NCBI GenBank assembly: GCA_028289815.1
Contig: JAPYNQ010000063.1
Coordinates: 15,017-79,016, forward strand
Origin: Gammaproteobacteria bacterium
GTDB lineage: Bacteria > Pseudomonadota > Gammaproteobacteria > JAJDYQ01
Length of the DNA stretch: 64,000 nt
Direction: 5' to 3'
Positions 1 to 2,417 of the stretch are shown here, one piece after another. A program made the translations under genes and the position numbers. Under the pieces are notes generated by a model, which did not search any database, was not told the DNA's origin, and saw nothing but the letters and a program-made list of their open reading frames with translations. Each line of letters opens with the position of its first letter. Within the stretch, counting starts at the first letter, position 1.

Positions 1-506
1 TTCATCGGAAGAATTTCAATCCCGACATCAATGGTATCGGAGACATAGAAGCTCAGGTGCTTTACAAACAAGTCATGTGCGACAAATGCATATTTGCCGA
101 ATTGAACTTCAACGGCAACCCGATCCTTCACAAAATCTGTTTGGTTGTAAGATTTAATTGGCTCATATCCCGCAGCTTTTATGCCGGCCTCCTGCTTATC
201 GGGTGAATAGCCATGAATGGTGCGCAGGATTTTCTCATCAGCAGTCACCCAGAAGGTGTTACGCTGTTCTTTCCATCCGGCATTTTTAAATCCATCATCG
301 AAGGCCTGGTTCATGTCTCTCGGAGAAAATAACATGTCACCTTTTTTACTTTTCTCCTGAGATACCTTTGTCTTGCAGGCATGGGCATCTACTCCTGCGA
401 TGATGCTCCTGACCTGTTGCCACAGGTTACAGTGGTGAACTATCAGATATTCTTTTCCGTTGAGATGTGAATATAGGTTGCCCCGATCCGCATCAGTGCC
501 CTCCAT
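1..506 (-). CDS. Type II restriction endonuclease, BglII/BstYI-like, partial (N-terminal about 168 aa visible; gene continues past the window start)
   Basis: My own translation of the minus strand from the ATG at 506 gives MEGTDADRGNLYSHLNGKEYLIVHHCNLWQQ...DFVKDRVAVEVQFGKYAFVAHDLFVKHLSFY. The segment D-x9-E-V-Q-F-G-K-Y-A-F matches the BglII catalytic region (GKRDTLVEVQFSNYPF, with the E-x-Q variant of the PD-(D/E)xK motif). The ATG overlaps the 3' end of the upstream methyltransferase by 14 nt, which suggests an operon. It is absent from the ORF track because it has no stop inside the window. Confidence 0.6.
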   Translation of the reverse strand, partial: MEGTDADRGNLYSHLNGKEYLIVHHCNLWQQVRSIIAGVDAHACKTKVSQEKSKKGDMLFSPRDMNQAFDDGFKNAGWKEQRNTFWVTADEKILRTIHGYSPDKQEAGIKAAGYEPIKSYNQTDFVKDRVAVEVQFGKYAFVAHDLFVKHLSFYVSDTIDVGIEILPM

Positions 507-1353
507 TGGGTTTTGATGGATCATAGATAGGCTTACCCATAGGGCGCGTCTTAAGTGTCCCCGAATGCATCTGTGAAATACGCTCATTGGCGATTTCAAT
601 GTATTCTTCGGCTATGTCACACCCGTAGGCAGACCGTCCATGCTTGAGGGCAGCTATCGCCGTAGATCCTACTCCCAGATAGGGATCAAATACGGCATCA
701 CTTGCTTCCGTCATGGACAATACCAAGCGTTCCACCAGTTCAATAGGGAACTGGCATGGATGGATGGTTTTCTCTGGATGATTGTTTTTCACATTCGGTA
801 ACATCCATACATCGCTTGGGTTTTTGCCATTCGGATTACAGGACAGCTTCCCCACATTTGGTCCCTTGAAATATCGCTTTCCCGGGTATTTGGATGGGAT
901 GCGGATTGGATCAAGATTCCATGTGTAATGGTCGTTTTTGGTCCACCAGTTGACTGTCTCGTATCTACCCGACAATCGCTTGGTGCAATGTAAGCCATGA
1001 CCGAAATGCCAGATTATTCTATTCCGAAGTTTAAGTCCGTGGGACGCAAAAATTGGATAAAGCGGAATATCCATCGGTATGATCTCTCCGTTGCTCACGT
1101 GGTTTCCTACCTGCCAGCATATCGAACCACGCTCATCCAGCAAGCGAACGCACTCTGAAATGACATCTGCCTGTCTTTGCAGATATTCATCCATAGAAAC
1201 TCGCCTCTCATACGATTTGCCGAGATTGTAGGGAGGTGAGGTGACGATCAGTTTGAATATTCCGTCTGGTAATGCAGACATGAATTTGAGGTTATCCTCA
1301 CACTCAATGACAATCCCGGGTGTCTGGAGTTCTGGTACTGTTGCCATAAACAT
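493..1353 (-). CDS. DNA methyltransferase, beta-class N4-cytosine/N6-adenine family (SPPY motif precedes the FxGxG AdoMet motif); the M subunit of an R-M pair
   Basis: 286-aa ORF. Motif IV is TSPPYNL near the N-terminus and motif I is FDPYLGVGST near the C-terminus. This permuted order is typical of the N6_N4_Mtase family that includes M.BglII and M.BamHI. Confidence 0.8.
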   Translation of the reverse strand: MFMATVPELQTPGIVIECEDNLKFMSALPDGIFKLIVTSPPYNLGKSYERRVSMDEYLQRQADVISECVRLLDERGSICWQVGNHVSNGEIIPMDIPLYPIFASHGLKLRNRIIWHFGHGLHCTKRLSGRYETVNWWTKNDHYTWNLDPIRIPSKYPGKRYFKGPNVGKLSCNPNGKNPSDVWMLPNVKNNHPEKTIHPCQFPIELVERLVLSMTEASDAVFDPYLGVGSTAIAALKHGRSAYGCDIAEEYIEIANERISQMHSGTLKTRPMGKPIYDPSKPNGGH

Positions 1354-1372
1354 TTCGATTTGTTCTTCGTCT

Positions 1373-2026
1373 TTATGGCTGGCTTGCCTTGGATGCCAGC
1401 CACTTGATCAGCGGCTGCCATTCAGCACGGAGCAGGGCGGTTGCCGCCGGTGCCATTTCAAAAATCCCCAAGCCTTTATCAACCGCACGCACGTAGTTTA
1501 TGTTGTCCGATAGTGCTGCAATATAGGGTTCACGCAGGCGATCCAGAAATTCATCCAGCTCCCAGAAAATCCGGGTACGGTCGCGTCCACGATTGGCAAC
1601 CAAGCATATCTTGCCCTTTTTGGCCGATATCAGGCGGGTTGCCCGAATTTCCCTGATGTAATCCGCTGCCGCACGCATGTCCATAGGGGAGGGCAGGACG
1701 GGGATAATAAAGGTGCGGGCATGGCGGACCAGGTTATTTAGGTCTTTACCATGCACAGATGCCGGTGCATCCATAATCATATAGCCGGTGCCCCGACCGG
1801 GGTTGACGGTCGCGGAAGTACCGTCTATACACTGAATTCTGGGTCTGTTGATTGAGGGGCGCACTTTTAGCCATGCCAAGCTGGAACCTTGCGGATCATA
1901 ATCGACCAAGGTGACTTTATTGCCCTTGCAGGCATAGTAACTGGCCAGATTGGTCGCGATAGTACTTTTGCCTGAACCGCCCTTGGCATTGATTACCATG
2001 ATAGTACGCATAGCTAATACCCTCAC
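1373..2026 (-). CDS. ParA/MinD-family ATPase (deviant Walker A)
   Basis: MRTIMVINAKGGSGKSTIATNLASYYA...VTLVDYDPQGSS is a classic ParA deviant Walker A (KGGxGKS/T). The protein is about 210 aa, like small plasmid-type ParA. An alternative start sits at MRTIMV (2008). It lies 20 nt upstream of the methyltransferase on the same strand. Confidence 0.8.
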   Translation of the reverse strand: MRVLAMRTIMVINAKGGSGKSTIATNLASYYACKGNKVTLVDYDPQGSSLAWLKVRPSINRPRIQCIDGTSATVNPGRGTGYMIMDAPASVHGKDLNNLVRHARTFIIPVLPSPMDMRAAADYIREIRATRLISAKKGKICLVANRGRDRTRIFWELDEFLDRLREPYIAALSDNINYVRAVDKGLGIFEMAPAATALLRAEWQPLIKWLASKASQP

Positions 2027-2193
2027 TTTCGCATTATTTTAGCAAAAGACTAGCAGAGTGGATTAGCTAAAACCAGTTGAATTAAGGACATTTTTCCATG
2101 GTAATGGCAGAATTACTGTCGGTACCCGGCCTGGAAGTGACTCTATCCGGGTGATGGGCGGATATAAACTGACGATTAAACGGAGAGATATTA

Positions 2194-2417
2194 TGAGTGA
2201 CAGAGAAGCCATGCAGGCCGAACGTGACAGACTTGTTCAGGAAATGATCGAAATGCAAAAACAGTTTATTGCTCGAGAGCGTGAGAGAGGAATCTCACCC
2301 AAAGAGTATTTCACGGCCACAGATGGAATGCTGAAGGATTATCGAAGCATTTATATGGATAAGGCGATGCGAGTCTCGGAAATATCCCGTCAGCTGATTG
2401 CTGATACCAAGGCATAG
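2194..2417 (+). CDS. Small hypothetical protein of about 74 aa, predicted charged and helical
   Basis: A GGAGAG Shine-Dalgarno sits 7 nt upstream of the ATG at 2194. The track ORF starts at 2151, but that start has a weaker ribosome-binding site. It is divergent from parA. I recognise no family. Confidence 0.3.

What the first reader, a model, noticed from the sequence alone, without database searches (positions are those of the whole stretch)
1..2026. Three-gene ParA / beta-class methyltransferase / BglII-like endonuclease module at the window edge
The methyltransferase (SPPY then FxGxG) and the endonuclease (D-x9-E-V-Q-F-G-K-Y-A-F, the unusual E-x-Q catalytic variant known from BglII) form a credible Type IIP R-M pair. 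A full-length ParA-family ATPase sits in the same orientation 20 nt upstream of M, with no ParB partner. The whole block abuts the 3' end of the conserved ntrBC locus. A ParA ATPase co-transcribed with an R-M pair is not an arrangement I know as standard. R-M operons normally carry a C-protein if anything. It could be an integrated plasmid-derived remnant, with parA left over from a partition cassette. It could also be a ParA-dependent positioning or stabilising accessory of the R-M system. Only the first 168 aa of R are visible.
Basis: partly seen in the sequence, partly recalled or inferred. Interest (0 to 1): 0.6.

Follow-up and report, generated by a model that had tools for sequence, protein, structure and literature searches.

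The report
Decayed BstYI-type R-M beside host ParA
The three genes are real, but they are not one system: a two-gene BstYI-type restriction-modification cassette, whose nuclease gene is already broken in two places, sits directly behind a conserved chromosomal ParA-like gene that has nothing to do with it.

Summary
ParA (window 2011..1373), a beta-class methyltransferase (1353..493) and a BglII/BstYI-family nuclease (from 493 leftward) lie head to tail on the minus strand.

The interpretation mostly fails.

1. The nuclease is a close BstYI (RGATCY) relative, not a BglII one. Extending the contig shows it is a pseudogene. A 2-nt insertion shifts the frame after native codon 7. A 3-nt insertion creates an in-frame TAA that removes the last 28 residues. 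The methyltransferase is intact.

2. The ParA is a conserved chromosomal gene of sulfur-oxidising Gammaproteobacteria. In close relatives the order is ntrBC-orf88-parA-fre. None of 85 ParA loci holds an M or R homologue. None of 52 R-M loci with enough upstream sequence has a ParA upstream of M.

3. Homology with the nearest genome stops 2 nt after the parA stop codon. The 1.8-kb M-R segment sits at a synteny break between loci that lie at least 1.2 Mb apart in that genome.

This is an ordinary decaying Type IIP R-M, probably now a solitary methylase read through from parA. Interest is low.

The parts
1373..2011 (-). Conserved chromosomal orphan ParA/MinD-family ATPase (212 aa, deviant Walker A NAKGGSGKS, intact native C-terminus WLASKASQP). 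It is a host gene and not part of the R-M cassette.
   Evidence: Pfam and NCBIfam matches. 3717 homologues at E<=1e-10, almost all 211-212 aa among the 120 listed. Alignment A2. Orthologues at 47-92% identity in chromosomes and MAGs of sulfur-oxidising Gammaproteobacteria. Homology with L002 runs through its stop codon.
1354..1372 (-). 19-nt parA-M spacer. The synteny break lies here, because homology with the nearest relative ends 2 nt after the parA stop codon. It overlaps the left arm of a 16-nt imperfect inverted repeat (window 1373-1358).
   Evidence: blastn of L001 against L002 ends at L001 9983. Inverted repeat I3. No promoter-like or terminator-like site on the coding strand.
493..1353 (-). 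Intact beta-class amino-methyltransferase of the M.BstYI type (286 aa; SPPY motif IV at 39-42, DPYLGVG motif I at 223-229). The predicted target is RGATCY, probably as N4-methylcytosine.
   Evidence: PF01555 at E 7.5e-50. PADLOC MTase_II at 2.4e-77. 84% amino-acid identity to the M of the intact L087 system, dN/dS 0.083. Matches the majority residue in 115 of 118 columns that are >=95% conserved in 68 homologues. The N4mC assignment rests on the SPPY motif and on PMC2890505.
499..504 (-). Conserved Shine-Dalgarno GGAGGG, 5 nt upstream of the native R start codon and inside the 3' end of M.
   Evidence: DNA alignment A3 with L087 and L089; sequence.
1..493 (-). BstYI-family restriction endonuclease pseudogene. 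The native ATG is at 493-491 and overlaps the M stop (TGATG). The gene continues 124 nt beyond window position 1, to L001 11477. Catalytic D119/E128/Q130 and specificity residues K133/S172 are still encoded.
   Evidence: Match to PDB BstYI 1sdo at E 1.4e-81 running across the in-frame stop. PF09195 full-length match only after repair. Alignments A1, A3, A4 and A5. Removing the two insertions gives exactly 612 nt, or 203 codons.
472..475 (-). Lesion 1: TATA where homologues have TA. This 2-nt insertion follows native codon 7. The native frame now reads MRIGATYIHISTEKNI followed by a stop.
   Evidence: Alignment A3; frame translations.
1..1 (-). Marker for lesion 2, which lies outside the window at L001 11388-11390, 34-36 nt left of position 1. 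A 3-nt insertion (CCA TAA TAC where homologues have CC[A/T] TAC) creates an in-frame TAA and removes the last 28 residues.
   Evidence: All 83 surveyed homologues reach the family C-terminus. Of the top 120 database hits, only this protein is 180 aa; the others are 203-204 aa.
2193..2417 (+). Conserved small host ORF (74-88 aa, no family match) between ntrC and parA. It is part of the ancestral ntrBC-orf88-parA-fre neighbourhood and not part of the R-M cassette.
   Evidence: tblastn identity of 69-71% in L008 and L010 and 80% in L087.

Best explanation
Two unrelated things sit side by side.

(1) parA is a vertically inherited chromosomal orphan ParA/MinD-type ATPase of this clade of sulfur-oxidising Gammaproteobacteria. 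Its ancestral context is ntrB-ntrC-orf88-parA-fre.

(2) Directly after its stop codon lies a 1.8-kb segment (L001 9984-11801). It holds a minimal BstYI-family Type IIP restriction-modification cassette, M then R. The R start codon overlaps the M stop codon, as in every other member of the family.

The segment sits at a rearrangement junction. It joins the parA locus to the cobO-btuB-metE locus, which lies at least 1.2 Mb away in the nearest complete genome.

The endonuclease gene has been knocked out recently by two small tandem-duplication-type insertions, one of 2 nt and one of 3 nt. The methyltransferase remains intact. What is left is in effect a solitary methyltransferase, predicted to modify RGATCY (probably m4C).

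Its native upstream region is gone and nothing separates it from parA. It is therefore most likely transcribed by read-through from the parA promoter.

Shown here: gene identities, both lesions, M integrity, synteny, and the absence of co-occurrence. Inferred: the timing of the decay, co-transcription, the target sequence and the type of methylation.
For: Gene identities:
- The BstYI crystal-structure sequence aligns at E 1.4e-81 over residues 6-203. The alignment runs straight through the TAA.

The two lesions:
- Both are seen against L087 and L089 DNA and against nine protein homologues.
- Removing them restores exactly 203 codons with the consensus N-terminus MxIGAxYSHLNG.
- The conserved SD GGAGGG serves the native ATG, not the MEGTD ATG.
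- In a 20-sequence family alignment, 20 of the 28 lost residues are invariant and 4 more are at least 90% conserved.

Integrity and timing:
- M matches the majority residue in 115 of 118 highly conserved columns, and the three differences are conservative.
- dN/dS is 0.083 for M and 0.098 for R against the intact L087 copy, so the decay of R is recent.

Synteny:
- In all nine loci with ParA at >=74% identity, parA is followed by a fre-like reductase.
- ntrBC and/or orf88 lie upstream in L002, L008 and L010.
- Homology with L002 ends 2 nt after the parA stop.
- Homology with L171 on the cobO side ends at L001 11802.
- parA and cobO are at least 1.2 Mb apart in the L002 genome.
- The fre-hemD-algR-argH block is absent from the window and from L001.

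Co-occurrence:
- 0 of 85 ParA loci carry M or R within 6 kb.
- 76 of 83 R loci have M directly upstream. The other 7 are cut by a contig end.
- 0 of 52 R loci with enough upstream room have a ParA there. One ParA-like ORF lies 3.9 kb away on the opposite strand.

Mobility and expression:
- A related organism (L087) carries an intact copy at a different locus. Homology there is confined to the two genes.
- No promoter-like or terminator-like site lies on the coding strand between parA and R.
Against: - The contig is a metagenome assembly. I could not inspect reads, so the two indels are not independently verified. The 180-aa product is listed from NCBI, JGI and Logan, but the exact-match look-up failed.
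- The promoter scan uses only a simple consensus, so M may have its own promoter inside parA.
- Synonymous divergence of M-R between L001 and L087 (dS 1.0-1.3) equals that of host genes (0.94-1.15), and GC content is not anomalous. The cassette may therefore be old in this lineage and relocated, not newly acquired.
- The order of events (insertion, rearrangement, decay) is not resolved.
- Methylation type and target are inferred from homology only.
Confidence: 0.84

Rival explanations
1. One reading: ParA is a functional accessory of the R-M pair (positioning, stabilisation or regulation), and the three genes form a ParA-M-R operon.
For: The three genes share one orientation. The parA-M spacer is 19 nt with no predicted terminator.
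Against: - The ParA is orthologous (47-92% identity) to a chromosomal gene found in 85 loci, none with M or R nearby.
- R-M homologues never have a ParA upstream: 0 of 52 loci with room.
- Homology with the closest relative breaks 2 nt after the parA stop codon.
- ParA matches no defence-system family in PADLOC beyond two marginal hits (E about 5e-4, 17 bits).
- The R gene is dead.
Confidence: 0.03
2. The block is an integrated plasmid or mobile-element remnant, with parA left over from a partition cassette.
For: ParA matches NCBIfam ParA_partition below its cut-off (117 against 180 bits). R-M cassettes are mobile, and the same cassette sits at a different locus in L087.
Against: - The best identity of ParA to any of 72,556 plasmids is 36%. 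Identity to chromosomal orthologues is up to 92%, and those sit in conserved housekeeping neighbourhoods (ntrBC, xthA, ubiD, fre).
- No parB, integrase, transposase or replication gene lies within 10 kb.
- The BstYI family occurs on only 5 plasmids in the collection.
Confidence: 0.02
3. The two lesions in R are assembly or sequencing errors, and the organism has an active BstYI-type Type IIP R-M system.
For: - Apart from the two indels, the coding sequence is perfectly family-like and shows strong purifying selection.
- RGATCY is about two-fold rarer than dinucleotide composition predicts: 32 observed against 61 +/- 8.
Against: - Two independent indels at non-homopolymer sites fall within 510 nt. 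Neighbouring genes on the contig (parA, M, ntrB, ntrC, cobO) are intact.
- The same 180-aa product is recorded from three sources, including an independent Logan assembly.
- The RGATCY depletion largely disappears under higher-order Markov models (ratio 0.86).
Confidence: 0.08
4. A 180-aa protein is made from the upstream MEGTD ATG and keeps some activity despite lacking 28 C-terminal residues, for example DNA binding, nicking or regulation.
For: An open frame of 180 codons exists and still encodes D119/E128/Q130/K133/S172.
Against: - The MEGTD ATG has no Shine-Dalgarno. It lies inside the SD that serves the native ATG, and it is AAG in L089.
- Of the lost 28 residues, 20 are invariant and 4 more are at least 90% conserved in a 20-sequence family alignment.
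- All 83 surveyed homologues are full length.
Confidence: 0.03

Closest known systems
BstYI restriction-modification system (Geobacillus stearothermophilus Y; R.BstYI PDB 1SDO/1VRR/2P0J; recognises R^GATCY)
   Same: - The repaired R has the same 203-aa length as BstYI. The alignment is gap-free apart from the inserted stop (E 1.4e-81).
- R shares the D119-x8-E128-x-Q130 catalytic motif and residues at the positions I recall as BstYI's outer-base-pair contacts, K133 and S172.
- The partner is a beta-class SPPY methyltransferase encoded just upstream.
   Different: - Here R is a pseudogene, with a +2 frameshift after codon 7 and a +3 insertion giving a TAA that removes the last 28 residues.
- The host is an uncultured sulfur-oxidising gammaproteobacterium.
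- M has lost its own upstream region and abuts a host gene.
   Same: Same Pfam family (PF09195) and the same unusual E-x-Q catalytic variant.
   Different: The relationship is only remote (E 0.003, two short stretches; BglII is 223 aa). The window protein belongs to the BstYI subfamily.
Solitary (orphan) methyltransferases derived from decayed Type II R-M systems
   Same: An intact M sits next to an R gene inactivated by small indels. The rest of the R sequence is still family-like, which suggests recent decay.
   Different: Nothing here shows that M has been recruited for a host function. Its methylation activity is not demonstrated.
Orphan ParA/MinD-family positioning ATPases (e.g. McdA, ParC, PpfA; the unstudied 'nitrogen metabolism' A/D ATPase Hn0255 of Halothiobacillus neapolitanus, PMC10241942)
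   Same: It is a small (212 aa) deviant Walker-A ATPase, chromosomal, with no adjacent ParB. In this clade it sits next to ntrBC.
   Different: - No partner or cargo gene is conserved next to it across 80 genomes.
- The ntrBC adjacency holds only for the closest relatives.

Membership tests
BglII/BstYI-family Type IIP restriction endonuclease (PF09195) | Significant full-length sequence match to the family | tested here: met
   PF09195 at E 5e-25 for the fragment, and at 1.8e-33 over profile positions 1-163 when read through the stop codon (X) from the MEGTD start. BstYI 1sdo at E 1.4e-81.
BglII/BstYI-family Type IIP restriction endonuclease (PF09195) | Catalytic D-x8-E-x-Q, plus K133/S172 for BstYI-type RGATCY specificity | tested here: met
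   D119, E128, Q130 and K133 are invariant, and S172 is >=90% conserved; all are present in the window sequence. Their role in specificity is recalled from the BstYI literature and was not tested here.
BglII/BstYI-family Type IIP restriction endonuclease (PF09195) | Intact reading frame of about 203 codons from the SD-served ATG that overlaps the M stop codon | tested here: not met
   A +2 nt insertion follows codon 7 and a +3 nt insertion gives an in-frame TAA that removes the last 28 residues. It is the only 180-aa member among the top 120 hits. All 83 surveyed homologues are complete.
BglII/BstYI-family Type IIP restriction endonuclease (PF09195) | Cleavage of RGATCY | not testable with these tools
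   This needs enzyme assays of the native and repaired alleles.
Type II R-M pair (cognate M adjacent to R) | Methyltransferase of the partner family immediately upstream on the same strand, with its stop codon overlapping the R start codon | tested here: met
   The same M-then-R arrangement occurs in 76 of 83 homologous loci; the rest are cut by a contig end. The TGATG overlap is conserved.
Beta-class N4/N6 amino-methyltransferase (PF01555) | Motif IV (S/D/N)PP(Y/F) ahead of the AdoMet-binding motif I, full-length profile match, conserved positions retained | tested here: met
   E 7.5e-50 over profile positions 2-221 of 221. SPPY at 39-42 and DPYLGVG at 223-229; 115 of 118 conserved columns kept.
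Beta-class N4/N6 amino-methyltransferase (PF01555) | N4-cytosine (as opposed to N6-adenine) methylation of RGATCY | not testable with these tools
   SPPY is typical of N4mC enzymes (recalled from knowledge of the family). PMC2890505 calls M.BamHI and M.BglII N4mC methylases and M.BstYI 'possibly' one. The closest solved structures include both m6A and m4C enzymes.
ParABS-type partition cassette (plasmid or chromosomal) | Deviant Walker-A ParA ATPase | tested here: met
   KGGSGKS motif present. Pfam CbiA/AAA_31/ParA match. NCBIfam ParA_partition at 117 bits, below the 180-bit cut-off.
ParABS-type partition cassette (plasmid or chromosomal) | Adjacent ParB or other centromere-binding partner gene | tested here: not met
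   No partner lies in the window. No conserved small partner gene flanks the orthologues in 80 genomes; the neighbours are ubiD, xthA, a fre-like reductase, a YkuD-like gene and an AmpG-like gene.
ParABS-type partition cassette (plasmid or chromosomal) | Plasmid or mobile-element origin | tested here: not met
   Identity to any PLSDB plasmid is <=36%. Orthologues lie on 2-2.7 Mb chromosomes.
Hypothetical three-gene ParA-M-R system | Recurrent co-occurrence of the three genes | tested here: not met
   0 of 85 ParA loci carry M or R. 0 of 52 R-M loci with room carry an upstream ParA.

The most novel reading that the evidence does not exclude
After losing its nuclease, the methyltransferase was captured into the parA transcription unit. 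The fusion lies 2 nt after the parA stop codon, with no intervening promoter or terminator. M is now kept as a host-controlled solitary m4C methylase, for example for epigenetic regulation or for protection against incoming BstYI/BamHI/BglII-type systems. The R-M cassette itself may have mediated the >=1.2-Mb rearrangement that joined the parA and cobO loci. A related point: the cobO 3' flank would be a recurrent landing site for R-M genes, because a relative carries a different MTase-HNH gene there.
Probability: 0.15. Interest if true: 0.35.

Novelty: new member of a known kind. Interest (0 to 1): 0.15.

Why it matters
It matters mainly as a correction. An apparent ParA-linked R-M operon would have been a new architecture, but here it is an accident of gene order on a single contig.

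What remains is a textbook case: a selfish Type IIP cassette caught soon after its nuclease was inactivated, leaving a solitary methyltransferase at a rearrangement junction. That is useful for annotating this genome. R should be marked as a pseudogene and M as a probable orphan RGATCY methylase. Otherwise it is not surprising to a specialist.

The conserved orphan ParA family, which has no known cargo or partner, is the more interesting object. It is independent of this finding.

Tried and rejected
- **Structure prediction.** AlphaFold2 on the close homologue P0122, meant to show the structural role of the lost C-terminus, gave a poor model (pLDDT 61, with residues 163-192 below 50). I did not use it. 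I relied on conservation and on the BstYI crystal-structure sequence instead.
- **RGATCY avoidance as a sign of past restriction pressure.** The window has 32 sites. Expectation is 61 +/- 8 under dinucleotide or first-order models, 47 +/- 6.5 under a third-order model, and the ratio is 0.86 under a maximal-order Markov model. GATC itself is depleted. The result is inconclusive.
- **Terminal repeats of a mobile unit.** A 16-nt inverted repeat (14/16) brackets M-R, with its left arm starting at the last base of the parA stop codon. The arm sequence recurs nowhere else beyond chance in 1.4 Mb of loci, and seven other inverted-repeat pairs of 11-23 nt and 74-92% complementarity occur in the same 2 kb. 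It may be chance.
- **Promoter, terminator and Rfam scans** of the junction and the 324-nt AT-rich tail found nothing on the coding strand.
- **GC content** of M and R (46-47%) is within about one SD of the window mean (49.4 +/- 3.3%), so there is no compositional signal of recent import.
- **Exact-sequence look-up** of the 180-aa R product, meant to confirm the lesions in an independent assembly, returned nothing.
- **Cluster look-up** gave no organism names.
Full report
**What is in the sequence.** Three ORFs lie head to tail on the minus strand of window 1-2026.
- A ParA-like ATPase runs 2026/2011..1373. It matches Pfam CbiA, AAA_31 and ParA. It scores 117 bits against NCBIfam ParA_partition, below the 180-bit cut-off.
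- After a 19-nt spacer comes a 286-aa methyltransferase at 1353..493. It matches PF01555 at E 7.5e-50. SPPY lies at residues 39-42 and DPYLGVG at 223-229, which is the beta-class motif order.
- An ORF overlapping the 3' end of M runs off the window edge. It matches PF09195 Endonuc-BglII at E 5e-25.

Two details need correcting: the catalytic motif is D-x8-E-x-Q, not D-x9-E, and the spacer is 19 nt.

**Extending the contig.** An exact-sequence look-up of M returned the source contig, JGI metagenome 3300009883, Ga0131710_100003, 100.8 kb. This is locus L001, which is the window in reverse complement (window x = 11354 - L001 position). In L001 the called R gene is only 180 aa. Directly after its TAA, the same frame continues with YYERDLLNVIRQGRGVPAVPLALIGVTP.

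**R is a BstYI homologue and a pseudogene.**
- Read through the stop, the protein aligns with the crystallised BstYI (1sdo, 203 aa) at E 1.4e-81 over residues 6-203. BglII gives only E 0.003.
- The family is very large: at least 7997 proteins at E<=1e-20. Among the best 120 hits, every protein is 203-204 aa except this one.
- Protein and DNA alignments show two lesions.
  - *Lesion 1.* TATA replaces TA after native codon 7 (window 472-475). The family's start codon is the ATG that overlaps the M stop codon (TGATG, window 493-491). It is served by a conserved GGAGGG 5 nt upstream. From that ATG the window now encodes MRIGATYIHISTEKNI followed by a stop.
It happens to re-enter the R frame after the 2-nt insertion, and that hid the frameshift.
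  - *Lesion 2.* CCA-TAA-TAC replaces CC[A/T]-TAC, 34-36 nt beyond the window edge. This 3-nt insertion creates an in-frame stop and removes the last 28 residues.
- Deleting the five inserted bases restores exactly 612 nt, or 203 codons, with the consensus N-terminus MxIGAxYSHLNG.
- In a 20-sequence family alignment, 20 of the 28 lost residues are invariant and 4 more are at least 90% conserved.
- All 83 surveyed homologues reach the family C-terminus.
- Catalytic D119/E128/Q130 and residues K133/S172 are still encoded. I recall K133 and S172 from the BstYI literature as the contacts to the outer R:Y base pair.
- BstYI recognises RGATCY (PMC2731914).
- Against the intact copy in L087, dN/dS is 0.098 for R and 0.083 for M. 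R was therefore under purifying selection for nearly all of its history, and its inactivation is recent.

**M is intact.**
- It is 84% identical to the M of the intact L087 system.
- It matches the majority residue in 115 of 118 columns that are at least 95% conserved across 68 homologues. The three exceptions are conservative (M/L, V/I, R/K).
- The type of methylation cannot be read from sequence. SPPY is typical of N4-cytosine enzymes. PMC2890505 lists M.BamHI and M.BglII as N4mC methylases and M.BstYI as "possibly" one.

**ParA is a host gene.**
- The ParA has 3717 homologues at E<=1e-10. Almost all of the 120 listed are 211-212 aa.
- Alignment A2 shows that the window copy is complete from MRTIMV to the conserved C-terminus W-L-x-S-K-x-S-Q-P.
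- A scan of one genome per species returned 80 loci at 47-89% identity. They include Thioalkalivibrio, Thiothrix, Ectothiorhodospiraceae, Thiotrichales, Chromatiales and many unnamed gammaproteobacterial MAGs. Several lie on 2-2.7 Mb chromosomes.
- In all nine loci with ParA at >=74% identity, parA is followed by a fre-like Fer2/FAD/NAD reductase. In most of them hemD, algR and argH follow. In L002, L008 and L010, ntrBC and/or the small orf88 lie upstream, as in the window.
- None of the 85 ParA loci holds an M or R homologue within 6 kb.
- Across the wider family the neighbours are housekeeping genes: ubiD and xthA upstream; a YkuD-like gene, an AmpG-like gene or fre downstream. No conserved ParB-like partner appears.
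- Against 72,556 plasmids the best identity is 36%.
- PADLOC gives the ParA no match to a defence-system family beyond two marginal hits (E about 5e-4, 17 bits).

**The reciprocal survey.** I fetched 83 loci that encode an R homologue.
- 76 have the M homologue immediately upstream on the same strand. The other seven are cut by a contig end.
- 52 have at least 1.7 kb upstream of R, and none of those has a ParA there.
- One locus has a ParA-like ORF 3.9 kb downstream on the opposite strand.

**Where the cassette sits.**
- Nucleotide homology between L001 and the nearest complete genome (L002, about 80% identity) runs from xthA through ntrBC and parA. It stops 2 nt after the parA stop codon.
- On the other side, homology with L171 (cobO-btuB-metE) ends at L001 11802, 29 nt beyond cobO.
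- The lineage-specific segment is therefore L001 9984-11801, about 1.8 kb. It consists of M, R and a 324-nt AT-rich tail with no RNA-family match.
- In the L002 genome, parA (about 1.54 Mb) and cobO (about 0.17 Mb) are at least 1.2 Mb apart.
- The fre-hemD-algR-argH block is absent from the window and from L001.
- The cassette thus lies at a rearrangement junction.
- A related organism (L087, GCA_022825085.1) carries an intact copy at a third location. Homology there (80.6% nucleotide identity) covers only the two genes.
- In L171, the cobO 3' flank carries a different N6_N4-MTase-HNH gene.
- Synonymous divergence of M-R between L001 and L087 (dS 1.0-1.3) matches that of host genes (0.94-1.15), and GC content is unremarkable. 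The cassette may have been in this lineage for a long time and moved. I cannot order the events.

**How it most likely works now.**
- R is not made. The SD-served start gives a 16-residue peptide.
- Any product from the upstream ATG would lack a conserved 28-residue C-terminus.
- M is intact. It has lost the upstream region seen in other loci (265 nt in L087) and lies 19 nt from parA. The simple scan finds no promoter-like or terminator-like site on the coding strand.
- I infer read-through transcription from parA and solitary methylation of RGATCY. Neither is shown.

**Rivals.**
- A functional ParA-M-R system is contradicted by both co-occurrence surveys.
- A plasmid remnant is contradicted by the orthology, the plasmid search and the absence of mobile genes.
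- Assembly error is the only serious rival (about 8%).
  - Against it: there are two independent indels at non-homopolymer sites, in a contig whose neighbouring genes are intact. The 180-aa product is also listed from NCBI, JGI and Logan.
  - I could not inspect reads, and the exact look-up failed.

**Verdict.** The finding is an ordinary, recently decayed BstYI-family Type IIP R-M cassette. A rearrangement or insertion unique to this contig placed it next to an unrelated, conserved orphan parA. It is a new member of a known kind, and interest is low.

Noticed in passing
window 1373-2011 (-); loci L002-L086: The ParA belongs to a tightly conserved family of about 212 aa: 3717 hits, 47-92% identity across sulfur-oxidising Gammaproteobacteria. 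No cargo is known and no partner gene is conserved next to it. Neighbours are housekeeping genes (ubiD, xthA, a fre-like reductase). A paper on Halothiobacillus neapolitanus mentions an unstudied seventh ParA/MinD ATPase (Hn0255) with a 'nitrogen metabolism' neighbourhood. It might be the orthologue, since this one sits next to ntrBC in its closest relatives.
   Followed up: partly
window 2151/2193-2417 (+): A small ORF of 74-88 aa lies between ntrC and parA, on the opposite strand to both. It has no Pfam or NCBIfam match. It is conserved at 69-80% amino-acid identity in L008, L010 and L087, with dN/dS 0.10 against L087. In L087 it sits next to DUF4124 instead. tblastn did not detect it in L002.
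   Followed up: partly
L001 9981-9996 and 11563-11578 (left arm = window 1373-1358): A 16-nt imperfect inverted repeat (14/16; AAGACGAAGAACAAAT / ATTTGATTTTCGTCTT) brackets the M-R cassette. Its left arm starts at the last base of the parA stop codon, at the synteny break. It is not repeated elsewhere beyond chance and could be coincidence.
   Followed up: partly
L171 6805-8106: In a close relative, the 3' flank of cobO carries a different gene: a 433-aa N6_N4 methyltransferase fused to an HNH nuclease domain. The window's organism has the BstYI-type cassette at this site. This may be a recurrent landing site for R-M genes.
   Followed up: partly
L005 12431-14734 compared with L004: Two loci share identical ParA, with otherwise the same genes in the same order. 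They differ by a 767-aa HSDR_N/N6_Mtase gene (Type IIG/Type I-like) inserted between algZ and argH in one of them. This is strain-level R-M variation in the same neighbourhood.
   Followed up: no
whole window: GATC contexts are skewed: RGATCY 32, YGATCR 85 and mixed 126 (both orientations together), counted on one strand. RGATCY is about half of its dinucleotide expectation. It is only 0.86 of the expectation from a maximal-order Markov model.
   Followed up: yes
L002 5628-7718: In the 2.57-Mb long-read chromosome of the nearest relative, ntrB and ntrC are called as truncated or split genes (226, 273 and 216 aa). These are probably long-read indel errors, not real pseudogenes.
   Followed up: no
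L089 6747-7013: One intact BstYI-type locus has an 88-aa HTH_3 gene just downstream of R, a candidate controller (C) protein. No such gene accompanies the cassette in the window's contig or in L087.
   Followed up: no
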